In this document: one piece after another, positions 19,730 through 40,884 of the stretch
Layout: each line of letters starts with the position of its first letter
Numbering within the stretch: position 1 is the stretch's first letter
Source: a virus
Lineage: Duplodnaviria; Caudoviricetes
DNA: 64,000 nucleotides
Direction: 5' to 3' (one strand)
Virus record (IMG/VR): IMGVR_UViG_3300033802_000250
Position numbers and translations under genes: made by a program
The notes under the pieces: generated by a model
What the model saw: only the letters and a program-made list of their open reading frames with translations
Database searches by the model: none
Told to the model about the DNA's origin: nothing

Positions 19730-20440
19730 ATGTCGTTTCTTCCACCGAAAGACAAAATGAACGAAGGAGCCGGAAAGCGCCCGGATGGCCGCTATAAACG
19801 TCGGGATGAACTGGAGCAACAAGGGGAAGACGAAGCTCAAAATCTCGACAACCACACCCTGCGGGTCGGCGGATTCGGGCCGCCACAATATGGCGAAGAA
19901 TCGCAATCGCAACGGCGACCGACGTATGACGAAGAACAGCTTCGTCGCGCATACCAAAACTTCTCCGACGAAGAAACCGAAGGCGATGAGGATCTGATCG
20001 GCGACGAAGACGACGAGGAGGATTACGATGAGGGCGACGAGTACCTCGATGATGTTGCGCCTCAATCCCTCCGTCAACCGGGCGGCGCGTTTTTGCAGGA
20101 TGAACCTCTGTTCCCGGGCGGGCCGATGGTCTCTGAAGTCAACTCGTGGAAAAAGCAGTTTGAAGTCGATGGACACGTCATCATGATGTCCGACGACATC
20201 GGCGGAGAAACGTTCATCTGGCGCACGCTGAGCCGGACGGAATACCGGGAGATCATGAATCTGCCGAACACCGATCCGCTTCAACGCGAAGAAATCATCT
20301 GCGAAATTTGCGTCTTGTTCCCGTACAACTACAAGTTCGATACGATGGCAAGCCGCAAGGCCGGAATCCCGGCGGTACTCGCGGAGCAAATTCTGCACGA
20401 ATCAGGATTCAAGAAACCGTCACCTCCGATCAGATTGTAG
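19730..20440 (+). CDS. Tail assembly chaperone-like protein 1 with an acidic disordered N-terminus
   Basis: Position between tube genes and tape-measure-like genes. FIWRTLSRTEYREI..CVLFP..LAEQILHESGF; D/E tract. Confidence 0.6.
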   Translation: MSFLPPKDKMNEGAGKRPDGRYKRRDELEQQGEDEAQNLDNHTLRVGGFGPPQYGEESQSQRRPTYDEEQLRRAYQNFSDEETEGDEDLIGDEDDEEDYDEGDEYLDDVAPQSLRQPGGAFLQDEPLFPGGPMVSEVNSWKKQFEVDGHVIMMSDDIGGETFIWRTLSRTEYREIMNLPNTDPLQREEIICEICVLFPYNYKFDTMASRKAGIPAVLAEQILHESGFKKPSPPIRL

Positions 20441-20450
20441 GTGATGCTCG

Positions 20451-21263
20451 GTGGATCAAGAAGAACTGGAGAGAATGCTTCTTCGGTTCCGCAACCAGTA
20501 CGGTGAAGTCTATGTCACAGCCATTGGTGATGTGGAATTTGTCTTCCGGGCTTTGACACCGAAAGAGCATCGGGAGATCGCCGAGTTCGCGGAAAATGAA
20601 GACGACGCATTCGAGCGCATCTGTAATACCGCCGTGCTGTGGCCCAAGATCGACTTTACCCGGGGCCGCGCGTATTGGCCTACGATGCTGGCCCCGCAAA
20701 TCCTTGAGGAATCCGGCTTCGGCGGAAACTACAAAGAGATCCAGTTGCTTGAGATCTTTCGTGAGCAACTGAAAGGCTTTGATAAACAAGCCGAAATCCT
20801 CATCGCCACGGCGTTTCCTCAATACCGCTTTGAGGAGATTGAGACGTGGACGAAGGAAAAGCTGATCAAAATGGCTGTCGCCGCAGAATGGCAATTGCGT
20901 TATCTGCGCGGACTGAAAGACTTTGAATTGATCCCGACTGTCCAGCAGGAGCCGGATGTTGATGGCGAAGTTCAGGAAGAACAACCGTTTGACATCATGG
21001 AGAAGGCTTGGGAACTCAGGCGCAGGGGCCAAGATCCGCTCTTTGTGCTTCGTGATTTGATCCAGAAGCCAAAGCCTCCATTCGTCGAGCGCCCGATCAT
21101 CGGCGGCAACCAACAGATCGACACGATCATTGGCGGTATCGACGCATGGAAAAAGGAGGTTCTCCCTCGTGGCAGATACGACATTATACAAAAACAGGTA
21201 CAGGAAGTATCTCGAAGACGACGCAGACACGTATCTCGGCGAAAAGACGCCGACCAGCACTAA
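20451..21263 (+). CDS. Tail assembly chaperone-like protein 2 (paralog of the preceding gene)
   Basis: FVFRALTPKEHREI..AVLWP..LAPQILEESGF. Confidence 0.6.
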   Translation: MDQEELERMLLRFRNQYGEVYVTAIGDVEFVFRALTPKEHREIAEFAENEDDAFERICNTAVLWPKIDFTRGRAYWPTMLAPQILEESGFGGNYKEIQLLEIFREQLKGFDKQAEILIATAFPQYRFEEIETWTKEKLIKMAVAAEWQLRYLRGLKDFELIPTVQQEPDVDGEVQEEQPFDIMEKAWELRRRGQDPLFVLRDLIQKPKPPFVERPIIGGNQQIDTIIGGIDAWKKEVLPRGRYDIIQKQVQEVSRRRRRHVSRRKDADQH

Positions 21264-24200
21264 GTTCATCATGGGAGGAGTTGCCGCCGTGGGCCTAGCC
21301 TTCGGCGGCCTTCACGCATTTAACAGCGGTATGCTCCGTGACATCATGCATTCGACCATCCTGCGTGCCGGACGCTATCGCCGTGGCCGCGTAACGGCAC
21401 TCAATCAGTCACTCCGCCGGTGGTCTGAAGATGACGGGTGGACTGGACTCAGTCAAGCGCTGAAGGATGCAATCAAGGGCAATCTCAACTCCGCAAAAAC
21501 CAATATGAACCGGTTTATCGAAACGATGGGCCGGGCGCGAAATTACGCGGAGGATGGCCTGATTGAACATCAGCGCCGGATGGAAAGGATCATGAACAGC
21601 CAACTCGTTGATAAGGAGTACGAGGCGTTCCGCCTGCATTCCAACTACAATGAGATTCTGCGACAAATGCGCGAGCAGGGCATTGACGAGGGAAGCAGAG
21701 CATACCGCTTTGCGGCAGAGCGGATGAGAGACTTCCGCGTGAAGTACACGACGCTCGATGACAAGTGGGAAGCATTGCAGATGCATCGCACCGGATTCCG
21801 TCATGCGACGATCAACGATTTGATTAGGGCAGGCGAACTCAGCCTCGATGAGCCGTGGGTCAAAGAAGGTATGGAGCTTTTCCGGCAGGCAACCGGCAAA
21901 GCGGAAAACTTCCTCACCAGTCGCGCCGACCGGAATATCCTGATCGACATGGACGGCAATATCGCCGATCTGCGCGATTTCCGCAAAACGTTTGTCGGCT
22001 TTATCGAAAGCATTACAACCGACTTCACGATTCCGCTGATCAAAATCAACCCGCTTCGGATGTTCTATCTGGATCTGTTCTTCAGAACCGAGGACAAGCC
22101 GTTCTTCTATCTGGCAAAGCCGTCGCATCGCAATCCAATTGTAACCGGCCACAATGGGGCGGCCAACACGCCGCTGTTCTTTGTGGACGGTAAGGTGTAC
22201 GACATGTTGCCAGCGGATAGCGATCTGCCGAAACAAGTTGCCCAAGGTGTCTTTTTGGCGGACGCCCGGCGTGGGCCGGTGGCTCGGCTTTTGCGGAATA
22301 TGTCGGGCATCAGTATCTCGAAATTCAACAGACCGGAAGCCAACGCGCCATTTTGGGTGCGGGCTCGATACAACCTTCAATCATTCTTGGGACTCGGCCA
22401 GCAGGATGAGCCGGGCGGCAAGTTCGACTTCTTCGATATGACCAGTTGGGGTCAGTCGTTCATGAACTTCTTCACGAAGCGTCTCCAGATGACAAAGTAT
22501 CAAGTGCGGGATGATTATCTGTCCGATGCGTTCGGCGAAGGTGCGCAGTACATCTTCTTCCACAAGCCGAAATCGTGGAATGAATACGACAACATCAAGG
22601 ATTTCTTGGGGCAATTGACGGCGGGCCGAAAGGATTTGACGAAGGTTACAGTAGCATCGCTGTTCCCATACGGTTTTGTGGAGCGCCTTAACGCAACGCT
22701 CAATCAAGTCTATCTCGGACTTCCGAACTCCGATTTGGGAAGCGCGTTCGATATCTTTAAGAACCTGATGCTCAAACGCATCATGCCGATTTGGGCAGGA
22801 TACGAACTGTTTCAGTACGTCAACTACGAATCGGAGAATTTTACCGGAGAGCAATTCAGCGACCGGTTTGCAAAGATGTACGCCCATACCTCTGTCGAGA
22901 TCGCACGTTTGCGGGATAAGCTCGGGATTACCGAATGGGCAAAAGGCGTATCGCCGCTACTTGTTGGTGGCGAACAGATTACGGAGTTCCCGGTTATTGG
23001 CCGGTTCTTTGACTGGAACGACAGCGAAGAAGAAACGAAGGAGTATTGGGAATCCGGCATGGATCCGGTTCGCAAAGGACGTTGGTGGCCGCTTGGCAAT
23101 ACGCCATACACGGGCGGCAAGATCGACTACTTCCAACCGAACTGGGTTCGCCGCGTGCTGGCGGATGCTAAGTTCAGCGACACGATGTATGGTAGCCGGG
23201 ACGAATACTTCGCCCATAGCTGGATGCCGACGCCACGATATCCGCTGGCACCGATTCGGCACTTCTTCACGGATCCGTATCATTGGGAGGAGAAGCATTA
23301 CTACGACCGTCCGTATCCGGTGACAGGCGGTATCCCGGAACTGGAGGAGTTTCCGCTCATCGGCCCGGTTCTCAATTCGACGGTCGGCGCGATCCTGAAA
23401 CCGCAACGCCGGATGCACATGGAGTATTGGGAAGGCCAACCGGAGGATTTGCAGGAGGCTGTTCCGGTTGCCAGCTTCGCGCCGGTTACGCCGGAGCTTC
23501 AGCGGGACTTTGTAATGGGAACCGGAATGTTTGGAGCCGCCGGAGGTGGAACAGGGCCTACGGTATCCATTCCGGCATCGACCATGCAAGCTGTCCAGCC
23601 GGTCATGGCGGCATATGTTACGGCCAGCGGACAGGTTCAACTGATTTCGACAGACGACCAAGAAAACATCCAGTACGCCCGACAAATCATGCAGGATCGC
23701 TCTCCGCTTTATACCGGACGCTTCCGGCAGGAGAACCTTCCGCAACCCGGAGATGTGCCGGATGATTCGATCCCGGTATTTCCGGGTGCATTGTCGCAAG
23801 TTGTTGGCAACCTGCACTATAACGTTTCGGAAATGGGCGGCTTCTACGGCTTCATGGGTACGTCGGTCACGGGCGAACTGTTCGATGATCGTCCCGTGTT
23901 GCAATCGTCGTCTGAAATCTCGTCGTACACCCGTGCGTTTTGGGATATGGACATTGGCGGTTACGGCGGCGACGCGAACGAAATCTTCCGGCGTTTCCTG
24001 CCAAAAGAACGCAGGCTGAATGAAGTGAACCCGATTCGCAACCGGATGCCGGACTGGCTCCCGGGGCAGGATTACTTCATCGACTTCCAGCGTGGCGATC
24101 CTTACGTCAAGATCAAGAAGGGTGAAATCCGCTTGCCGGGCGAAGCCTACGAGCGGATGTACAACATCGACACCGACAAAATGCTCCGCATGGAGATCGG

Positions 24201-26823
24201 CGCGTCGTTTATCGGGTACGACCCGCAAACAATCCGCGAACACATGCTGTACATGGATGCCGTCAAAGAAGAATCCTTCAAGCGCAAGCTGGATTTCGGT
24301 ACGGACTGGCACAAGGCGTGGGAGAAGCAAATGGCCGAATCCGGCATTGCGATCAGCATGGAGGGTTATGTTAAGGACGAAAGAGCAGGGATCAGCGGAT
24401 TCTATGACCTGTATGGCGATCACGAGAAGATCCTCGACTACCTGTTTGCGAATGCGGCGGAGTTCACCTATTTTGGCCCGACCTATGTTCCCGATCCGTC
24501 CGGGCAAGGCTTGCAACCGGACGAGAACCTCGGCGGCTTCTACTACGAAGGAAGCGTCATAGACTTGACCGATGAGGAGTCCCGGGAGCAGTTCAAAGAG
24601 TTCGCGTTGACACAAGGCCAATACGCGCTGATTGACCCGAAAACGCGGAGCCCGTGGGAATGGGAAAACGGGACGGTGCATTTCGAGAACATTCAGCAGG
24701 TCAACTTCTATGCGCAACATATGCAGACGCCAATCAACTATCTGATTCATGTGGATCGGGAAAACCCGGATCGCGGCTTCAAAGTATATGCCTTTGGCGC
24801 GAACCCGGAACTGTATGACTACAGTGTCGCAAAGGTCGAAGCGGTACGGGAGGGAATACGACAGGATATTGAATCGGGCAGACTGTCGCGCGGCGACCTA
24901 TACCGCCCGATTGACCGATACCGGATTCTCGCCGATGTTGCGCCGTATTCGCAGGAGTTCCGCAACCTGAAGTCTCAGCTTGCGATGATGGATCTGACGG
25001 AGGAGGAACAGGAGGAAATCCGGCGCATCAACGAAATGGTGTCGCAACGCAAACAGCGTCTTCGGCTGTATCCGTACCGGTTCACAACGGCCAATCTGGA
25101 GAACGCATTCGTCACGGTAGATCAGGTGATCGACAGCAATACGTTCACAACTCTGGAGTTCCCGGACAATCCCATTCGGCTGGCTGGACTCAGGGTGCCC
25201 GTCGGTCAAGACGATCCGGTGGCGCAACAAGCGCGTGAAGTGATTGACTCTGTTATCAAGCCGGGCAAGCGTTTGCGGATTGCTATCGACGCCGACGAAC
25301 TAAACCGCGTGAAGGATGACACCTACCAAACAATTCAGGCCGTGGTGTACGACCGCAAAGATCGCAATCTGAACTACTACCTGATTCAGCAGGGGCTCGC
25401 CAAGGAGAAAGAGGAGGATTATTCTCCTGCGGCGGTACACGCCCGCTTCACGCCTCGGGAGATCGCGTTCGGATCATTATGGGAACGGTTTGCCCATATG
25501 GATACGATCATCCACACGAAGTTCCTTCAAGTGCGCTCGCCGCTGGAAAGCTACGAGCGGCGGGAAGTCTACGGCAAGGACTGGCAGGAATGGACAGATC
25601 CTATTGCCGACTACCTGATTCCGGCAATCCAGAACGCGATGGTTCACCATCCGATTTTTGCAATTGCCGGGGGCGCATTCATCGGTGCCGCTTTCGGTTC
25701 TTTGAAGTCTGGTGACATCGGATATACCGGCGAGCGTATCGTCGCCCGGTATGGAAAGATCGTCGGCGGCGTACTCGGCGCATCGGTAATGGGTACGGCG
25801 GTCATGTACCGGATGTTGTACGAGGAGATTAACAACGAGGCATGGATTCCGAAGCGTCGGAGAAAAGAAAGGGAAACAGAAGAATACTTCGATATCCTGA
25901 AGTATATCAAGTACAACAAGCTGTTCGAGGAATACGCAAAAGCCGCCAAGGAACAAGAAGGCTTTGATGTCAAAGCGTACATCGAGCAGGAGAGCCGGGA
26001 AGGCCAACTGCGAGAACAGCGTGTGAAGGATCTCGAAGACATCAAGCGGCTAATCTATCGCTCGCGACAAAATCAATGGCCGGAAATCCAAGAACGACTT
26101 CGTGAATTGGGCATTGATGCAGAAGACCGCGAATCCGCCATGAAGGAAATCAACCGGGAGCTTGCGGCGCTGAAACAGCACCGGGAGATCCGTCCGGTGA
26201 CGCCGCTTGCGGCACGCGCGATTCTGTACCATCAGGCCGCCAGCAAGACCATGTATGGCTACAAGCCGGGTGATCCGGTCGCCAACGTGCTTGCCGCTCT
26301 GCCGAAAAAGGAGCGGGATTACCTCGTTCCGTTTATCGAAGCGCCGGAGGAAGAACGCCAGCGCATTCTGGATGTCGTTCCAAGCTATGTACGCCGTGTT
26401 CTGCAATCGGCGTGGGGGCTTCCGGTGGATGAGAAGATCAGCTTGCAGAAATACTTCGAGTCGCATCCGCTCCCCGGCCCGGGATGGGAAGGCTGGCGCG
26501 AGAATGTCTCCATCGACGACATCAAGGTGAAGTTTGTGGATCGCGTCGGTCTCGACCCGTCCGAGTTCGACATCTGGCCGCAAGACAAACAACGGGCCGA
26601 GATGGTCGATGCTCCGGTTCCGAACGTCTTCGGCGGATGGGAGACCGCCAGCAGTTACGCTGAAAAGATTCGCGGTATTTTGCAGGGAGCGGGACTGGAC
26701 GAGATTGAAGTTGACATCGTAGAATCAAATAGAGAAGGTATTCAGGTCGATATGGACATCCGCAAGGATCGCCGCGAGGAGTTCAAGCGACTGGTGAATA
26801 CGCAGGGGCAGTACGTTATCTAA
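21169..26823 (+). CDS. Giant tape-measure-position protein 1 with TM segments, a PD-(D/E)XK (RecB/Cas4-like) nuclease domain and a degenerate SNase fold
   Basis: Likely GTG start at 21169 after AAGGAGGT (track start 21130). GTDWH..E..GISGFYD..IDPKT..QVNFY at about 24295-24770. VIDSNTF..IRLAG..NLNYYLIQQGLA at about 25105-25410. Gly-rich hydrophobic segments at the N-terminus and about 25650-25815. Confidence 0.65.
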   Translation: MADTTLYKNRYRKYLEDDADTYLGEKTPTSTKFIMGGVAAVGLAFGGLHAFNSGMLRDIMHSTILRAGRYRRGRVTALNQSLRRWSEDDGWTGLSQALKDAIKGNLNSAKTNMNRFIETMGRARNYAEDGLIEHQRRMERIMNSQLVDKEYEAFRLHSNYNEILRQMREQGIDEGSRAYRFAAERMRDFRVKYTTLDDKWEALQMHRTGFRHATINDLIRAGELSLDEPWVKEGMELFRQATGKAENFLTSRADRNILIDMDGNIADLRDFRKTFVGFIESITTDFTIPLIKINPLRMFYLDLFFRTEDKPFFYLAKPSHRNPIVTGHNGAANTPLFFVDGKVYDMLPADSDLPKQVAQGVFLADARRGPVARLLRNMSGISISKFNRPEANAPFWVRARYNLQSFLGLGQQDEPGGKFDFFDMTSWGQSFMNFFTKRLQMTKYQVRDDYLSDAFGEGAQYIFFHKPKSWNEYDNIKDFLGQLTAGRKDLTKVTVASLFPYGFVERLNATLNQVYLGLPNSDLGSAFDIFKNLMLKRIMPIWAGYELFQYVNYESENFTGEQFSDRFAKMYAHTSVEIARLRDKLGITEWAKGVSPLLVGGEQITEFPVIGRFFDWNDSEEETKEYWESGMDPVRKGRWWPLGNTPYTGGKIDYFQPNWVRRVLADAKFSDTMYGSRDEYFAHSWMPTPRYPLAPIRHFFTDPYHWEEKHYYDRPYPVTGGIPELEEFPLIGPVLNSTVGAILKPQRRMHMEYWEGQPEDLQEAVPVASFAPVTPELQRDFVMGTGMFGAAGGGTGPTVSIPASTMQAVQPVMAAYVTASGQVQLISTDDQENIQYARQIMQDRSPLYTGRFRQENLPQPGDVPDDSIPVFPGALSQVVGNLHYNVSEMGGFYGFMGTSVTGELFDDRPVLQSSSEISSYTRAFWDMDIGGYGGDANEIFRRFLPKERRLNEVNPIRNRMPDWLPGQDYFIDFQRGDPYVKIKKGEIRLPGEAYERMYNIDTDKMLRMEIGASFIGYDPQTIREHMLYMDAVKEESFKRKLDFGTDWHKAWEKQMAESGIAISMEGYVKDERAGISGFYDLYGDHEKILDYLFANAAEFTYFGPTYVPDPSGQGLQPDENLGGFYYEGSVIDLTDEESREQFKEFALTQGQYALIDPKTRSPWEWENGTVHFENIQQVNFYAQHMQTPINYLIHVDRENPDRGFKVYAFGANPELYDYSVAKVEAVREGIRQDIESGRLSRGDLYRPIDRYRILADVAPYSQEFRNLKSQLAMMDLTEEEQEEIRRINEMVSQRKQRLRLYPYRFTTANLENAFVTVDQVIDSNTFTTLEFPDNPIRLAGLRVPVGQDDPVAQQAREVIDSVIKPGKRLRIAIDADELNRVKDDTYQTIQAVVYDRKDRNLNYYLIQQGLAKEKEEDYSPAAVHARFTPREIAFGSLWERFAHMDTIIHTKFLQVRSPLESYERREVYGKDWQEWTDPIADYLIPAIQNAMVHHPIFAIAGGAFIGAAFGSLKSGDIGYTGERIVARYGKIVGGVLGASVMGTAVMYRMLYEEINNEAWIPKRRRKERETEEYFDILKYIKYNKLFEEYAKAAKEQEGFDVKAYIEQESREGQLREQRVKDLEDIKRLIYRSRQNQWPEIQERLRELGIDAEDRESAMKEINRELAALKQHREIRPVTPLAARAILYHQAASKTMYGYKPGDPVANVLAALPKKERDYLVPFIEAPEEERQRILDVVPSYVRRVLQSAWGLPVDEKISLQKYFESHPLPGPGWEGWRENVSIDDIKVKFVDRVGLDPSEFDIWPQDKQRAEMVDAPVPNVFGGWETASSYAEKIRGILQGAGLDEIEVDIVESNREGIQVDMDIRKDRREEFKRLVNTQGQYVI

Positions 26824-38200: not shown

Positions 38201-40884
38201 ATCTGGCTTACGTGCGGATGTCCAATGTGTATGGCGCATTCGACTTCTCGACACGGCTTGTTGACCCGCGTGATTATATGAAGCATTCTTACGGCATTCT
38301 GGAGCGGGCAAAGAAGGTCTTCACGAACTTCTATCTAACGATCACCGAGAAGACGATTACCGAGCGCACGCAGTTGCTTGACCACCTCAAGCTGAAGCAG
38401 GGTTCCCGTGTGCATATCCGAATGGGATATGGCGCAACGGCGTCGTATCTGCCAATTTGTTTCAATGGTCAGATCGCAACGATCAATGAGGGCGATCATC
38501 TTGAGATGGTTTGCCAAGGCGACGGTGTCGAACTGACACGTATTGTTTCCGTGCATCCGAGCGGCAAGCTGACAAATGGCGCACCGCTTAAAGAAGAACC
38601 GCAAAACATCTTCAAGCAACTGCTTGTTTCGCGGATGTCGGACTTCTGGTTCGCAATGTCGGAGGATATGGGGAACATCTTCAACAATATCACGAACGCC
38701 TTCGGCATCGAGCATTTTGGGTACATCGAAAGCTACGCCAGCGACGGGACATGGCAAACGCTCAAAGACCTGATGGATTATCTGACCGACAAAATCTTCG
38801 ATACCGACAAGTCCGTCTACATCTACGATGTGATGAAAAACATCTATCGTGGAACAACAATTTCGGGCTTTACGGATACAGCGTTCGTGTTCGACTACGA
38901 AGCCAACATCAAAATCTATCCCTTCGGCAGAACAACATGGGATATTATGCAAGTCGTCACCTTGCATACCCCTGAGTTTATCTGTGCGCCGCATGTTCAC
39001 GGATTCCACAGCACGCTGTTCCACGGAATGCCGCATTGGCCCGTAAAGTATGCGTATCGCCGCAAACGAAATGCGAGCGGCAAGCCGATGGGCGACCCGG
39101 ACAAGTTGACCAGCTACGAGGAATTGTACAAGCCATTCCAGCAGTTCTATACCATCATGTCCGGGTACGATATTATCCATAACGGTATCGAGGTCAGTAG
39201 CGAAAACCTTCGTCATATCGCCGTCGGTGTGTATTTCAAAGGTGCGGGGCGCGAACAGGTCACGACGGATGCCGTTTATGCCGACCGTACCATCAAGCAA
39301 GAAATTCAGAAGACGATGCTGGTCGATACGATGGTTTATCAAAATCTGTGGGGGCCGGAATGGATTTATGACACTCTCCGGGGCGGCGCCGGATGGCTGT
39401 TTGACTTCACGGCATGGGGTGGCTCCAAGGTCGGTCGCTTCTTGTACAAGCATTTTGGAATGGATCCCGATCTGACAGACGAGCAGAAAGAAGCACTCTT
39501 GAAGCAACTCGACCCCTATGTCGAACAGGCAATGCCGGACAAAAACAAAGTGTTTCAGCCGGGATTTGAAATGGCGCTTGCTGTTACCATCGGAGCGCTT
39601 CAGCGCAACTTCATGGAGATGTATCAGGGCGAACTTATTATCTTCGGCGAACCATCCATCAAGCCGTGGGATATCTTCTATCTCGCAGATGAATACAACA
39701 TGATCCACGGAACGGCTGGTGTCGGCAAGGTTACGCATACGCTCAGTCAGGAGACCGGATTTACGACGGTTATCAAACCCGACCTGTGCGTAACCCGGAG
39801 CGATGGAGCGCATCGTAACTGGTTGTACAGTACCATTACCAAGGCCGGTAGCGCCCTTGTTTTGAAAGGGCTCCACCGTCTTGCGATGACGAAAGCGGCC
39901 AAGACAATCGCCGAACTGACCGGCGGCGGGACGCTGTGGACAGCCCGCAAGGTCATGCAAGGAGCCGGAAAACTGGCGTCGCTTACGGTAGGGGAAAATA
40001 CCGTACGGCTTGCCAAACAGGCGCTTGACGACTCGAAATTGGTCAAGACGGGGTGGTCATCGCTCAGAAGTCTTACCTCCATCGGCACGAAGGCGCTGAA
40101 GGCGGTCAAAACAAATGTCGTATTCGGCGTTATACTTGGCATCTTCACAACAAAGCTGGAAGATTGGATGCGTAAAGAACTCGGGTTCAACAACGTCATC
40201 TTCATCTACCCGTTGTGGAAGGCCGGTAAGCCGTTCGTTGCCGGGATTTCAGGATACCGCCACATCATTCCGAACTACATCGAGCCCGAATGGCTCCCGG
40301 TTGACTATATCGAGAAGATCGAGACTGGCGACCCCGAGTTCAAAAAGCCATCCTACGGTGACACCGAATATTCGGGATCGCTCATCGGCAGGTTGCCCGC
40401 AGGCGCAGTAACAAAACCGGTCGATCCATTCATCATCTCAAGCCGGTTCGGAATGCGTAACGGCAAGATGCATAAAGGGATCGACATCGCGCCTCTCCCG
40501 GATCGCAAAAAGAACACCTATGTCCGGTCGATTGCGGACGGCAAGGTCGTAGACTACGGATTCCAAGAGGAGATGGGCAACTATGTTTGTATCCAGCACA
40601 CCATCGGTGGTGAGCAATACTACGCAGTTTACATGCACTTGGCGCAGTCGTGGGTGCAAAAAGGCGACATCAGCGCCGGTGACGCCTTCGCCCTGATGGG
40701 TAATACCGGTAGCGTTCGCTCAGGAGGACGTGTGCCGGACGCCGACGAACTCGCGGCGGGCGCGGGCACCCATCTGCATCTTGAGATCAGCAAGGGAACG
40801 AAACGCGCAAAGACCGAGGAGGAAGGATTGCTCGATCCCGAAAAGTTCCTCGCGCAGTTCGGCATTGCGGACGAGAAGGAGTGA
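35272..40884 (+). CDS. Baseplate hub/tail-associated lysin: GH73 glucosaminidase, 2x LysM, hub-like region, M23 peptidase (1870 aa)
   Basis: YGINACFLAAVAALESGWGTS (GH73). YELEPGDNL..A.KF and YTVVDGDTW.DIA..FG..I.ALNP (LysM). ISSRFG.R..HKGID..YAVYMHL..HLHLEI (M23). GELIIFGEPSIKPWD..VTH..GFTT hub pattern. Confidence 0.85.
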   Translation: MADFYNHDVRSRCGVDAKTLDAKILPKAILNEQRRLKEEGVKVTSVMRGIGSLLLKMETEYGINACFLAAVAALESGWGTSDFAIQYKSIFAIGAYNKDPENTKEYGGATIEEGVANSVYAMKHYFIEKHKKYTINQFQSYPNAYAQLNDGTPTPHWAKNVADIWAELQGIPNTGVGRVSEYDNRSGSTSNGLIGRQWDWAKYELEPGDNLQTVAAKFKTGVDFLCKWNGITTSQVLHPGNVLRVYPCYTVVDGDTWNDIAVDFGLTIKEIKALNPGVPEVLNPGTKIRLPAIIITDDPPQSYDQVNRDTPDGASRYSRKLPLEPVLGVAPHVEDDEYPAHRTRQNPFTVRIGDVQLFLPPTSIKTSKEGFVDSRHVIRSHTDMMTRSGHTRRKIELELYFTDTDQINGYRVQGPNGMTYYMDGLRPLIAQFMKNPFLPIRNELLNDRHKIYNVAFHDLLIETDPDFPNVLVCRLSLLECSVEPLIQYPDFFYDELFMYPLFRWWYQQMLQENAANRLSARYLKTVPHGSLLGGITFNVLDREKVVELISNTNIYILSQIKFSELQSLMSPWPIGDAVLENVTVGMSKTYNPLHCDHHEIPVFQDLGGIKKEFILEFTCTNRAQLESLNNMVSHLEEMSRDFRHRFVSGFLQIDNEILNMCGIYNAMVVSMDTETLSEYDECFRVRLFCVGFDPTQKNHERVLGVNSLINDPEQYLSFSNPNNLNPETSALIENKTNRQSGVFMEAAVEEALNFLELYPDLELPTYDDVNKAIPAINKLRRTYGRSPLPMTQIPKPPGAVFVDPDFYFAYPDIKRAFETLEVGDFGAKFVNMFGNPDGYLDYAALSNEMDLGWWLDGQDDSLMKAWQDDAFKQTYREKMETVVDLSSLEPTDYADNIGTNWSADNPPPRNDELLRMMCHDMIMYNKRGRMVRAFPTYLILFVDEGQWLNGKRLWNNYYTYHAVHEISVVRDKDNPVDLAYVRMSNVYGAFDFSTRLVDPRDYMKHSYGILERAKKVFTNFYLTITEKTITERTQLLDHLKLKQGSRVHIRMGYGATASYLPICFNGQIATINEGDHLEMVCQGDGVELTRIVSVHPSGKLTNGAPLKEEPQNIFKQLLVSRMSDFWFAMSEDMGNIFNNITNAFGIEHFGYIESYASDGTWQTLKDLMDYLTDKIFDTDKSVYIYDVMKNIYRGTTISGFTDTAFVFDYEANIKIYPFGRTTWDIMQVVTLHTPEFICAPHVHGFHSTLFHGMPHWPVKYAYRRKRNASGKPMGDPDKLTSYEELYKPFQQFYTIMSGYDIIHNGIEVSSENLRHIAVGVYFKGAGREQVTTDAVYADRTIKQEIQKTMLVDTMVYQNLWGPEWIYDTLRGGAGWLFDFTAWGGSKVGRFLYKHFGMDPDLTDEQKEALLKQLDPYVEQAMPDKNKVFQPGFEMALAVTIGALQRNFMEMYQGELIIFGEPSIKPWDIFYLADEYNMIHGTAGVGKVTHTLSQETGFTTVIKPDLCVTRSDGAHRNWLYSTITKAGSALVLKGLHRLAMTKAAKTIAELTGGGTLWTARKVMQGAGKLASLTVGENTVRLAKQALDDSKLVKTGWSSLRSLTSIGTKALKAVKTNVVFGVILGIFTTKLEDWMRKELGFNNVIFIYPLWKAGKPFVAGISGYRHIIPNYIEPEWLPVDYIEKIETGDPEFKKPSYGDTEYSGSLIGRLPAGAVTKPVDPFIISSRFGMRNGKMHKGIDIAPLPDRKKNTYVRSIADGKVVDYGFQEEMGNYVCIQHTIGGEQYYAVYMHLAQSWVQKGDISAGDAFALMGNTGSVRSGGRVPDADELAAGAGTHLHLEISKGTKRAKTEEEGLLDPEKFLAQFGIADEKE

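What the first reader, a model, noticed from the sequence alone, without database searches (positions are those of the whole stretch)
24290..24860. RecB/Cas4-like PD-(D/E)XK nuclease domain with intact motifs inside the ~1.9k-aa tail protein
Seen: G(T)xxH (GTDWH), E (SMEGYV), GISGFYD, IDPKT and QVNFY occur in the canonical RecB-family order, with an insertion of roughly 70 aa between the D and DxK motifs. No Cas4 Fe-S cysteine cluster is visible. Inference: an active nuclease embedded in a virion protein.
Basis: partly seen in the sequence, partly recalled or inferred. Interest (0 to 1): 0.75.

Follow-up and report, generated by a model that had tools for sequence, protein, structure and literature searches.

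The report
RecB-like nuclease inside phage tail protein
A giant tail-module protein of a jumbo Bacillus-type phage carries a RecB/Cas4-like DNA-cutting domain with its catalytic residues intact, so the phage probably brings a nuclease into the cell with its tail, though no activity has been measured.

Summary
This ORF is the homolog (54% identity) of Bacillus jumbo phage 0305phi8-36 gp145, a virion protein found by mass spectrometry and encoded between the tail chaperones and the tape-measure gene.

An AlphaFold2 model of aa 1020-1300 (pLDDT 92) matches only RecB-like PD-(D/E)XK nucleases. The best is Cas4 SSO0001 at Z 13.1, then lambda exonuclease, MGME1 and Dna2.

H1061, E1078, D1093, D1169-x-K1171 and Q1190-xxx-Y1194 are at least 97% conserved in 77 homologs down to 26% identity. 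They align column for column with Asp99/Glu113/Lys115/Gln131/Tyr135 of SSO0001.

The gap between D and DxK is 12-16 aa in distant homologs and 60-75 aa in this clade, so the insertion is real and clade-specific. Homologs without it hit Pfam PDDEXK_1 (E 3e-7) and NCBIfam cas4 (15 of 17, below cutoff). The protein has no cysteine, so it has no Fe-S cluster and is not a true Cas4.

The family is large: 2063 clusters, nearly all giant proteins on about 200-kb phage or phage-plasmid contigs. About 5% lost all motifs together and one homolog deleted the core, so the module is accessory but selected.

Activity and delivery are inferred. Earlier notes in this scan cover this same genome only.

The parts
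21169..26823 (+). Gene for the giant tail-module protein, homolog of 0305phi8-36 gp145. The longest ORF runs from TTG 21130 (1897 aa = P0001, the numbering used in this report). The likely start is GTG 21169, behind a GGAGG.
21265..21321 (+). N-terminal hydrophobic, Gly/Ala-rich segment (aa 46-64), transmembrane-like
   Evidence: Kyte-Doolittle mean 1.73 over 19 aa
23047..23439 (+). Highly conserved block A (aa 640-770; motifs RKGRWW, GNTPYTGGK, DRPY) of unknown fold. Homologs carry an intein here (GN|TP).
23947..24186 (+). Highly conserved block B (aa 940-1019; NPIRN..MP.WLPG..YF.DF..GDPY.K...GE.RLPGE.YE) leading directly into the nuclease domain. Homologs carry inteins at two or three sites here.
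24187..24915 (+). RecB/Cas4-like PD-(D/E)XK nuclease domain (aa 1020-1262)
   Evidence: AF2 pLDDT 92; Foldseek PDB; VIA Z 13.1 to 4ic1; BFVD; profile alignments
24298..24312 (+). Helix motif G-T-D-W-H (G1057, H1061; E1065 follows): the helix that carries the metal-ligand His of RecB-type enzymes
24355..24372 (+). Strand beta1 with conserved E1078 (SMEGYV)
24388..24408 (+). Strand beta2, motif II G-x-x-D (G1090, D1093). D is invariant, 77/77.
24412..24624 (+). Clade-specific insertion (about aa 1095-1165) replacing the beta2-beta3 hairpin. Predicted as helix, small sheet, helix, with lower pLDDT (64-76) in the middle.
24631..24645 (+). Strand beta3, motif III D-x-K-T (D1169, K1171, T1172)
24697..24711 (+). 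Helix motif Q-x-N-x-Y (Q1190, N1192, Y1194), the QxxxY hallmark of the RecB/Cas4/lambda-exo branch
24922..24951 (+). Invariant motif R-I-L-A-D-V-A-P-Y-S (aa 1265-1274) just after the nuclease domain; function unknown
25084..25407 (+). SNase-like (thermonuclease/OB) domain, aa ~1319-1426, with the catalytic positions substituted
   Evidence: Pfam SNase E 0.012; family profile vs PDB thermonuclease E 6e-5, with alignment
25636..25809 (+). Glycine-zipper-like hydrophobic hairpin (aa 1503-1560), transmembrane-like
   Evidence: Pfam 'Glycine zipper 2TM' in homolog P0083

Best explanation
Residues ~1020-1262 of this tail-module protein fold as a RecB-like PD-(D/E)XK nuclease. A helix carries G-x-x-x-H-x-x-x-E. 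Strand beta1 carries E1078, beta2 carries D1093, beta3 carries D1169-x-K1171, and the next helix carries Q1190-x-x-x-Y1194. In known members of this branch the His and the two acidic residues hold Mg2+/Mn2+, and the Lys activates water to cut a phosphodiester bond. A clade-specific ~60-aa insertion replaces the beta2-beta3 hairpin without touching the catalytic strands. There is no Fe-S cluster.

The carrier protein is a conserved virion protein of 0305phi8-36-like jumbo phages and phage-plasmids of Firmicutes. It is encoded in the slot where a tape-measure gene is expected and has transmembrane-like segments on both sides of the enzymatic region.

Inferred mechanism: the protein sits in the tail lumen or baseplate and is expelled ahead of the DNA when the sheath contracts. 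It anchors in the cell membrane through its hydrophobic segments. Its nuclease, helped by the adjacent catalytically dead SNase-like OB domain acting as a nucleic-acid grip, then cuts DNA in the infected cell. The target is most likely host or competing resident DNA; the phage's own ends are the alternative.

Shown: the fold, the intact and selected catalytic residues, the insertion, the gene position, and virion status of the homolog. Inferred: activity, substrate, ejection and site of action.
For: Fold: the AF2 model of aa 1020-1300 has pLDDT 92 and pTM 0.85, with topology helix, beta1, beta2, [insertion], beta3, helix, beta4, beta5. The top Foldseek PDB hits are all RecB-like nucleases: Cas4 SSO0001, LHK-Exo, MGME1, lambda exo, RecE, AdnAB, Dna2. 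VIA-align gives Z 13.1 to 4ic1 (152 aligned, rmsd 4.0), 11.9 to 3k93 and 11.4 to lambda exo, and the first 34 rows are all nucleases of this branch. In the viral library 64 hits have E<=1e-3; those that carry a name are almost all phage Cas4-like or PD-(D/E)XK proteins.

Sequence: a profile of 17 insertion-free homolog domains finds one PDB sequence, Cas4 SSO0001 (E 0.0045). Family D, D-x-K, Q and Y align with its Asp99, Glu113-x-Lys115, Gln131 and Tyr135 (active-site residues from PMC6137704). Single members hit Pfam PDDEXK_1 (best E 3.3e-7), PDDEXK_3 (23 bits, above its cutoff of 22), Cas_Cas4 and YqaJ. 15 of 17 hit NCBIfam cas4 (best E 8.6e-9). The window's own domain gives PHROG 1706 'CRISPR/Cas system associated' at E 0.0045.

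Selection: G1057, H1061, E1065, E1078, G1090, D1093, D1169, K1171, T1172, Q1190, N1192 and Y1194 are 94-100% conserved (all but E1065 and T1172 at least 97%) in 77 homologs down to 26% identity. Across 219 family proteins D is kept in 216 and motif III is D or E. About 11 members lost most or all motif residues together, in about 4 groups on a domain tree. One homolog deleted the beta core cleanly. Loss of all the residues together is the pattern expected if they form one active site.

Context: 54% identity over 99% of the length to 0305phi8-36 gp145, annotated 'identified as virion protein by mass spectrometry', between tail chaperonins gp143/144 and tape-measure gp146. The hub gene with LysM, glucosaminidase and M23 domains follows. 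Hydrophobic segments lie at aa 46-64 and 1503-1560. The family has 2063 representative clusters, and the best 150 are nearly all 1400-3771 aa. There are 22 IMG/VR loci on 40-261 kb viral contigs, most of them over 117 kb.
Against: No biochemical data exist for any family member.

The window's own domain gives no Pfam hit and no PDB hit by phmmer. Family assignment therefore rests on homologs, profiles and a predicted structure.

The geometry of D/D/K in the model could not be measured, because coordinates are not exposed.

A folded 28-kDa domain does not obviously fit a tail-tube lumen, and an active nuclease next to the phage's own DNA end needs some restraint. The insertion, unfolding in the tube or lack of metal could each provide it, but all of these are speculative.

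The module is dispensable in some lineages, so it is not essential for building the tail.

Virion location is known only for the 0305phi8-36 homolog, from a database annotation. The primary paper was not available.
Confidence: 0.6

Rival explanations
1. The nuclease is active but works on the phage's own genome. It trims or resects the leading DNA end on entry, for example to release it from the tail proteins or to expose the terminal repeats for recombination or circularisation, possibly together with a 3'-5' exonuclease module in the neighbouring tape-measure protein.
For: The domain belongs to the branch that holds end-processing exonucleases: lambda exo, RecE, Cas4, MGME1, Dna2. The protein is encoded next to the tape-measure gene, and tape-measure proteins touch the DNA end in tailed phages (general knowledge). 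DEDDh-like motifs (DMETTG, GQN..EAD, HLASTD) are visible in the next gene (scan note e1-5634566).
Against: Lineages that lost or deleted the domain keep the rest of the protein, which is unexpected for an obligatory step of genome entry. Nothing here shows end specificity. The link to lambda exo by sequence is weak (hhalign probability 11%).
Confidence: 0.2
2. The domain is kept as a structural or DNA-end-binding module, a grip that holds or pilots the genome end, without cutting. The conserved residues serve metal-dependent binding.
For: The neighbouring SNase-like domain has clearly become non-catalytic. Degenerate family members still keep the fold, with HMM E below 1e-30. RILADVAPYS and other invariant non-catalytic motifs show strong structural constraints.
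Against: All catalytic positions, including the general-base Lys and QxxxY, are kept in about 95% of members over deep divergence and decay together when lost. Binding-only relics of this fold usually lose part of the set (general knowledge).
Confidence: 0.12
3. The nuclease acts outside the cell, as a virion-borne DNase that clears extracellular DNA in biofilm matrix so that the phage reaches the surface.
For: Virion-borne depolymerases are common. A relative (BtI1) carries an SNase domain on its hub protein (PMC2147016).
Against: The protein occupies the tape-measure slot and has membrane-type segments, not a fibre or surface position. An internal tail protein is not exposed before ejection.
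Confidence: 0.05
4. The motif set is a chance resemblance and the region is not a nuclease fold.
For: No Pfam or PDB hit with the single window sequence.
Against: Structure, profile and conservation evidence all agree.
Confidence: 0.01

Closest known systems
Bacillus phage 0305phi8-36 gp145 (YP_001429636.1; BFVD A7KUR9)
   Same: Ortholog. 54% identity over 99% of the length, the same gene slot between tail chaperonins and the tape-measure gene, the same nuclease domain with the same insertion, and found in virions by mass spectrometry.
   Different: Annotated only as 'virion structural protein'. Neither the record nor the comparative-genomics paper I could read mentions a nuclease.
Cas4 (SSO0001, PDB 4ic1; Pfam PF01930; NCBIfam TIGR00372)
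   Same: Best structural match (Z 13.1). It is the only PDB hit of the family profile, with D / (D/E)xK / QxxxY aligned residue for residue, and 15 of 17 homolog domains hit TIGR00372.
   Different: No cysteines, so no Fe-S cluster. Scores are far below the equivalog cutoff of 65 bits. It is not CRISPR-linked, is embedded in a ~1900-aa virion protein, and has a 60-aa insertion in the beta2-beta3 hairpin.
RecB/AddB-type nuclease domains (Pfam PDDEXK_1, PF12705)
   Same: The motif pattern His ... Asp ... Asp-x-Lys ... QxxxY, with 12-16 aa between D and DxK in insertion-free members. PDDEXK_1 is the best Pfam family (E 3.3e-7). AdnAB and RecBCD chains appear in the structural list.
   Different: Not fused to a helicase. 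The window's own copy is below Pfam detection because of the insertion.
Lambda exonuclease / YqaJ / RecE 5'-3' exonucleases
   Same: Same fold (Z 11.1-11.4 over model residues 1-243). Weak YqaJ and TIGR03033 hits in a few members.
   Different: Sequence support is weak (hhalign probability 11%, only the QxxxY region aligned). No evidence of a toroidal oligomer.
Tape-measure and tail-lumen proteins with embedded enzymes (e.g. phage T5 pb2, cited in PMC4870245) and 'polyvalent proteins' injected with phage DNA (PMC5512222)
   Same: The same idea: catalytic modules carried on a giant protein that leaves the virion through the tail at infection.
   Different: The known tape-measure enzymes are muralytic or fusogenic, not nucleases. 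Polyvalent proteins are a different set of architectures, and searches of that paper for RecB, tape measure and 0305 found nothing.
Phage T4 gp4-type virion-associated REase-fold nuclease (PMC7824862)
   Same: A PD-(D/E)XK-superfamily nuclease that is part of a jumbo/T4-like virion.
   Different: That one is a TnsA-like head-completion protein acting in packaging. It belongs to a different branch, a different virion location and a different gene context.

Membership tests
PD-(D/E)XK nuclease superfamily | alpha-beta-beta-beta-alpha-beta core fold | tested here: met
   AF2 pLDDT 92 with that strand/helix order. The best PDB and viral structural matches (34 top VIA rows; named viral hits) are members of the superfamily.
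PD-(D/E)XK nuclease superfamily | Catalytic D ... (D/E)-x-K on adjacent strands | tested here: met
   D1093 lies on beta2 and D1169-x-K1171 on beta3. They are 97-100% conserved and align to Asp99/Glu113/Lys115 of SSO0001. Spatial distances were not measurable.
RecB / Cas4 / lambda-exo branch | QxxxY helix motif after motif III and a G-x-x-x-H/E helix before beta1 | tested here: met
   Q1190/Y1194 and G1057/H1061/E1065 are conserved. Q and Y align to Gln131/Tyr135 of SSO0001.
Cas4 proper (TIGR00372 / PF01930) | Four-cysteine Fe-S cluster | tested here: not met
   Zero Cys in the whole 1897-aa protein.
Cas4 proper (TIGR00372 / PF01930) | Score above the curated family cutoff | tested here: not met
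   The best member reaches E 8.6e-9 but member 1 scores 16.6 bits against a cutoff of 65. Cas_Cas4 best E is 0.01.
Cas4 proper (TIGR00372 / PF01930) | Association with CRISPR-cas adaptation genes | tested here: not met
   The gene lies in a phage tail module.
Pfam PDDEXK_1 (PF12705) | Hit above the gathering score (22 bits) | tested here: inconclusive
   No hit for the window copy. 4 of 17 insertion-free homolog domains hit, best E 3.3e-7. The L015 relative scores 21.2 bits, E 3e-4.
Lambda exonuclease / YqaJ | Sequence-profile match over the domain | tested here: inconclusive
   YqaJ hits 1 of 17 at E 0.005, TIGR03033 hits 2 of 17 at 0.038, and hhalign to lambda Exo gives probability 11%. The fold match is Z 11.4.
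Staphylococcal nuclease (PF00565), for the adjacent domain | Fold-level sequence match | tested here: met
   The family profile hits thermonuclease chains at E 6e-5 over ~105 columns. The window copy gives Pfam E 0.012, below cutoff. Homolog P0087 gives E 7.8e-6, above cutoff.
Staphylococcal nuclease (PF00565), for the adjacent domain | Ca2+ ligands and catalytic Arg/Glu (D21, D40, E43, R87 of SNase, recalled from the literature) | tested here: not met
   In the alignment these columns read N, R, V and Q/T in the window (VIDSNT; LAGLRVPV; DTYQT). Only the R35 equivalent is kept.
Tape-measure / tail-lumen protein | Gene directly after the tail-chaperone pair and before the hub | tested here: met
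   Synteny with 0305phi8-36 gp143-gp147. The authors assigned the measuring role to the next gene, gp146 (PMC2147016).
Tape-measure / tail-lumen protein | Physical presence in the tail lumen and ejection at infection | not testable with these tools
   The only evidence is the mass-spectrometry annotation of the homolog as a virion protein.

The most novel reading that the evidence does not exclude
0305phi8-36-like jumbo phages and phage-plasmids use the tail lumen as an effector-delivery device, in the manner of T6SS or eCIS. Two giant tape-measure-slot proteins would carry a RecB-like nuclease, a DNA-gripping dead SNase fold and (in the neighbour) a DEDDh exonuclease into the cell ahead of the genome, to destroy host, plasmid or rival-phage DNA or to disarm DNA-based defences. 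The module would be exchangeable, having been lost or deleted in some lineages, and restrained in the virion by the clade-specific insertion or by unfolding in the tube.
Probability: 0.35. Interest if true: 0.75.

Novelty: new variant of a known kind. Interest (0 to 1): 0.55.

Why it matters
Enzymes built into tape-measure or tail-lumen proteins are known, but those described so far attack the cell wall or membrane. I found no description of a nuclease with an intact active site, conserved in more than two thousand sequence clusters of giant virion proteins.

If it is active and delivered, nucleic-acid attack or processing would be the first event of infection in a whole lineage of jumbo phages of Bacillus, Paenibacillus, Clostridium and relatives. 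That would parallel nuclease effectors of contractile injection systems.

It also assigns a function to part of a ~1900-aa 'virion structural protein' that has been unannotated since 2007. It offers natural controls for experiments: insertion-free, motif-dead and core-deleted homologs.

Tried and rejected
**Searches that found nothing**
- Single-sequence searches with the window's own domain were negative: Pfam no hit and phmmer against PDB no hit. The insertion appears to mask the family, so I used homologs without it.
- The search for related loci with the single domain found nothing in IMG/VR. The alignment-based scan then worked.
- A protein-id sub-range is not accepted by align_proteins. 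I used a DNA reference plus full-length homologs (A1, A3) and typed parts of stored proteins (A2).
- The full-length family profile against PDB was swamped by thermonuclease variants, so I repeated the search with the trimmed domain profile.
- The protein atlas gave no usable hit on aa 560-1020.
- An AF2 model of aa 590-1020 (pLDDT 73) gave no fold match: Foldseek best E 2.9, VIA wide best Z 2.9. This says nothing about novelty of the fold, because the model is multi-domain and over 400 aa.
- hhalign of the domain profile against lambda Exo gave probability 11%, so lambda-exo membership is not claimed.

**Partial check on the neighbour**
- The DEDDh claim for the neighbouring 2719-aa protein was negative by Pfam and by phmmer against PDB. 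The motifs are visible by eye. I treat it as an untested lead.

**Tools or sources not available**
- No whole genome is held for this window.
- The primary 0305phi8-36 proteomics paper (PMC2171028) is not held.

**Readings rejected**
- True Cas4: no Cys.
- Active SNase: catalytic columns are substituted.
- Chance motifs.

**Literature**
- Searches found no description of a nuclease in this protein family. That is absence in the held library only.


Full report
**1. What is at the coordinates**

The window is a tail-morphogenesis region of a relative of Bacillus thuringiensis jumbo myophage 0305phi8-36. The finding lies in one ORF, 21130-26823 on the + strand (1897 aa from the first TTG). A GTG at 21169 sits 9 nt after a GGAGG and matches the start of the 0305phi8-36 homolog, so the real protein is probably 1884 aa. 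I use P0001 numbering, counted from 21130.

tblastn against the phage collection gives 54% identity over 99% of the length to 0305phi8-36 ORF145. Weaker matches (32-38%) go to Bacillus phages WH1, Edson and KLEB27-3 and to Moorella phage MTATph1.

In the 0305phi8-36 record gp145 is a 'virion structural protein; identified as virion protein by mass spectrometry'. It is encoded after the two tail chaperonins gp143/gp144 and before the 'hypothetical tape measure protein' gp146 and the hub/lysin gp147. The window keeps that order:
- chaperone-sized ORFs at 19730-21263;
- this gene;
- a 2719-aa ORF at 26863-35022;
- a 1870-aa ORF at 35272-40884 with LysM, glucosaminidase and M23 domains.

Hardies et al. 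assigned the length-measuring role to gp146. They noted that the chaperonin genes are 'one gene removed' from it (PMC2147016). gp145 therefore occupies the canonical tape-measure slot, and no function has been assigned to it.

**2. The observation**

- GTDWH at aa 1057 (nt 24298);
- SMEGYV at aa 1076;
- GISGFYD at aa 1087;
- IDPKT at aa 1168;
- QVNFY at aa 1190 (nt 24711).

**3. Is it a nuclease fold?**

The window's own segment gives no Pfam hit, no phmmer hit in the PDB, and only a weak PHROG hit (phrog_1706 'CRISPR/Cas system associated', E 0.0045). The case therefore rests on homologs and structure.

- **Homolog alignment.** A region-restricted search of the 5.8-billion-protein collection returned 85 homologs of 1372-2764 aa. 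In a 77-sequence alignment of the domain, identities fall to 26%. G1057, H1061, E1078, G1090, D1093, D1169, K1171, Q1190, N1192 and Y1194 are each kept in 74-77 of the 77 sequences, and E1065 and T1172 in 72.
- **Structure.** AlphaFold2 on aa 1020-1300, with 31 homologs as the alignment, gave mean pLDDT 92 and pTM 0.85. The order is helix 30-51 (G38, H42, E46 in domain numbering), strand 55-64 (E59), strand 69-78 (D74), an inserted helix/small-sheet/helix unit (79-143), strand 146-154 (D150, K152), helix 166-179 (Q171, Y175), two more strands and a long helix. This is the PD-(D/E)XK core with the beta2-beta3 hairpin replaced.
- **Fold searches.** Foldseek against the PDB ranks Cas4 SSO0001, LHK-Exo, MGME1, type I-C Cas4, lambda exonuclease, DinG's nuclease domain, RecE, AdnAB and Dna2. 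VIA-align gives Z 13.1 to 4ic1 (152 residues, rmsd 4.0), 11.9 to the phage-related exonuclease 3k93, 11.4 to lambda exonuclease, 11.6 to MGME1 and 9.8 to Dna2. Unrelated folds start only at about Z 6. In the viral structure library the best hit is the 0305phi8-36 protein itself (E 7e-33). Sixty-three further hits have E<=1e-3, and those that carry a name are almost all phage Cas4-like or PD-(D/E)XK proteins.
- **Profile and HMM hits.** A profile of 17 natural insertion-free domains (A2) hits exactly one PDB sequence, Cas4 SSO0001 (E 0.0045). The alignment puts family E, D, D-x-K, Q and Y on the Cas4 residues. With a constant offset of 4 between chain index and residue number, these are Asp99, Glu113, Lys115, Gln131 and Tyr135. 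PMC6137704 describes them as the Mn2+ site and channel residues. Scanned singly, these domains hit Pfam PDDEXK_1 (4 of 17, best E 3.3e-7), PDDEXK_3 (23 bits against a cutoff of 22), Cas_Cas4 (4 of 17), PDDEXK_9 and YqaJ. They also hit NCBIfam cas4 TIGR00372 (15 of 17, best E 8.6e-9, far below the 65-bit equivalog cutoff). A distant IMG/VR relative (L015, on a 261-kb contig) scores PDDEXK_1 at E 3e-4 as a full-length protein.

**4. The insertion**

Between the motif-II Asp and the motif-III Asp there are 12-16 residues in 42 of the 77 homologs. That is the normal hairpin length of this family. The other 35, including the window (75) and the close relatives of 0305phi8-36, have 60-75.

The insertion-free profile matches the window protein as two pieces, aa 1020-1094 and 1166-1274. 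The insertion is therefore a derived, clade-specific feature of about 60 aa. In the model it has lower confidence in its middle (pLDDT 64-76). Its role is unknown. An autoinhibitory lid is one idea, without evidence.

**5. Evidence for selection on catalysis**

An exhaustive profile search of 1.84 billion representatives gave 2063 clusters at E<=1e-3, 502 at <=1e-10 and 184 at <=1e-30. The best 150 are almost all proteins of 1400-3771 aa with the domain in the same relative place.

Sixteen apparent exceptions in that table are misalignments of insertion-bearing sequences. Fifteen of them are intact in the MAFFT alignment; the sixteenth, P0175, was not in that alignment and is presumed to be the same artefact.

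About eleven members (for example P0076, P0079, P0116, P0126, P0212) have lost most or all motif residues together. They fall into about four groups on a domain tree, though long-branch effects may merge independent losses.

One homolog, P0081 (35-48% identical and collinear), lacks about 200 residues. These are exactly the beta core with every motif. It keeps the flanking helices and the RILADVAPYS motif.

So the module is dispensable for whatever the rest of the protein does. It is strongly maintained in about 95% of lineages, and the motif residues behave as one functional unit. This pattern fits an enzymatic accessory or effector better than a purely structural element.

**6. The rest of the protein**

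- **SNase-like domain.** A second nuclease-type fold follows at aa ~1319-1426. The family profile hits staphylococcal nuclease chains at E 6e-5, Pfam SNase scores E 0.012 in the window copy, and homolog P0087 scores above the cutoff. In the printed alignment the SNase Ca2+/catalytic columns (D21, D40, E43, R87, which I recall from the literature) read N, R, V and Q/T in the window. This domain is most likely a non-catalytic OB-type nucleic-acid binder.
- **Hydrophobic segments.** They lie at aa 46-64 and 1503-1527, continuing as a Gly-zipper-like stretch to ~1560.
- **Conserved blocks of unknown function.** Blocks at aa 640-770 and 940-1019 are the most conserved parts outside the nuclease. 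A model of aa 590-1020 (pLDDT 73) found no structural neighbour.
- **Inteins.** Homologs carry inteins at five to six different sites, always inside invariant motifs: GN|TPFTGG, WLPG|, GDPY|, RGDLY| (at the C-terminal edge of the nuclease domain, in P0130) and DTxxH|TK. Several members carry two or three inteins, and this explains the 2300-3771-aa forms.

**7. How it most likely works**

*Shown:*
- a RecB-type active site (His, Asp, Asp-x-Lys, QxxxY) in a confident fold;
- its conservation;
- the gene's place in the tail module;
- virion status of the ortholog.

*From established knowledge of the family:* the His and the two carboxylates bind one or two divalent metals, and the Lys positions the attacking water. 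Members are DNA exo- or endonucleases, many of which act on ends.

*Inferred:* the protein lies in the tail lumen or baseplate with the tape-measure protein and is expelled on contraction. It anchors in the membrane by its hydrophobic segments and exposes the nuclease and the OB domain to DNA in the cell.

My estimates are 0.95 for the fold assignment, about 0.75 that the domain is catalytically active, and about 0.5 that it acts after ejection inside the host.

The substrate is open. Host or competing DNA fits the dispensability pattern best. Processing of the phage's own ends is the main rival, and a non-cutting DNA grip is the second. An extracellular eDNA-clearing role is unlikely for an internal protein.

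The neighbouring 2719-aa protein shows DEDDh-like motifs by eye (DMETTG, GQN..EAD, HLASTD). Another agent of this scan reports that domain as confirmed (note e1-5634566). My quick Pfam and PDB checks were negative, so I treat it as context only.

**8. Comparison with what is known**

The domain works like a RecB/Cas4-type nuclease. It is not a Cas4: it has no Fe-S cysteines, it is below the family cutoffs, and it has no CRISPR context. It is not demonstrably a lambda-exo/YqaJ member either (hhalign 11%). It is best filed as a divergent branch of the PDDEXK_1/Cas4-like group.

Enzyme modules in tape-measure-type proteins, 'polyvalent' injected proteins (PMC5512222) and a virion REase-fold nuclease (T4 gp4 type, PMC7824862) are precedents for the concept. 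I found no mention of this family or of a nuclease in a tape-measure-slot protein in the held literature. JGI's automatic naming of two homologs as 'endonuclease YncB (thermonuclease family)' reflects only the SNase-like part.

**9. Distribution**

Homologs sit on 40-261-kb IMG/VR viral contigs, most of them over 117 kb. They also sit on 185-235-kb 'plasmids' of Bacillus, Paenibacillus, Cytobacillus, Clostridium and Cetobacterium, which are most likely phage-plasmids of this lineage. Notes from earlier in this scan concern this same genome only.

**10. Verdict**

This is a new variant of a known kind: a RecB-like nuclease module, with a lineage-specific insertion, built into a giant tail-module virion protein. 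Interest is moderate to high (0.55). Activity, substrate and delivery need the bench.

Noticed in passing
homologs P0019, P0027, P0029, P0033, P0045, P0053, P0065, P0074, P0085, P0086, P0130, P0176, P0178, P0199; window equivalents aa 657/658, ~979, ~992, 1258/1259, ~1462: The gp145 family is an intein hot spot. It has five to six different insertion sites, each inside an invariant motif (GN|TPFTGG, WLPG|, GDPY|, RGDLY|, DTxxH|TK), and some proteins carry two or three inteins with LAGLIDADG domains. The window's own copy has none.
   Followed up: partly
homolog P0081 (aligned to window aa 1041-1243); P0076, P0079, P0080, P0082, P0116, P0126, P0156, P0159, P0192, P0212, P0215: Natural nuclease-less variants exist. 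One is a clean ~200-aa deletion of the beta core. About eleven have all catalytic motifs decayed together, in about four groups on a domain tree.
   Followed up: partly
homolog P0137 (aa 734-906 and 1718-1908): One 2353-aa relative appears to carry two copies of the nuclease domain (E 6e-14 and 1e-40 to the domain profile).
   Followed up: no
window 24922-24951 (aa 1265-1274): The motif RILADVAPYS directly after the nuclease domain is nearly invariant (five of its ten residues in 77/77 sequences). It is more conserved than the catalytic residues and is kept even in the core-deleted homolog. Its function is unknown.
   Followed up: no
window 22897-24189 (aa 590-1020): Two very conserved blocks, rich in invariant His/Asp/Arg/Trp/Pro, have no Pfam hit. 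With a pLDDT-73 model they have no structural neighbour (best VIA Z 2.9). The first block (aa 632-758) also matches a virion structural protein of Acinetobacter jumbo phage ME3 (31% identity).
   Followed up: partly
window 25084-25407: An SNase-like OB domain in which the Ca2+-ligand and catalytic columns are substituted (VIDSNT, LAGLRVPV, DTYQT). It is probably a nucleic-acid-binding relic.
   Followed up: yes
window 21130-21263: The gene's 5' end overlaps the preceding chaperone-like ORF (20451-21263). The likely start is GTG 21169 behind AAAGGAGG, whereas automatic gene calls in the databases start 40-50 codons further downstream (1844- and 1850-aa versions), cutting off a conserved N-terminal stretch.
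   Followed up: partly
window 30736-32370 (inside ORF 26863-35022): DEDDh-like motifs (DMETTG; IIGQNVSEAD; HLASTD) are spread over ~545 aa of the tape-measure homolog, as noted by others in this scan. There was no Pfam or PDB sequence hit in my quick checks.
   Followed up: partly
window 35272-40884: The hub-position protein (1870 aa) carries N-terminal glucosaminidase, LysM repeats and a C-terminal M23 peptidase. The 0305phi8-36 gp147 homolog has a different N-terminal lytic domain (transglycosylase), which fits domain shuffling at this position.
   Followed up: no
plasmid records NZ_CP006906.1, NZ_CP048288.1, NZ_CP118109.1, NC_018509.1 and others: Homologs of the whole protein lie on 185-235-kb non-mobilizable 'plasmids' of Clostridium, Paenibacillus and Bacillus. 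This suggests that the lineage often persists as phage-plasmids.
   Followed up: no
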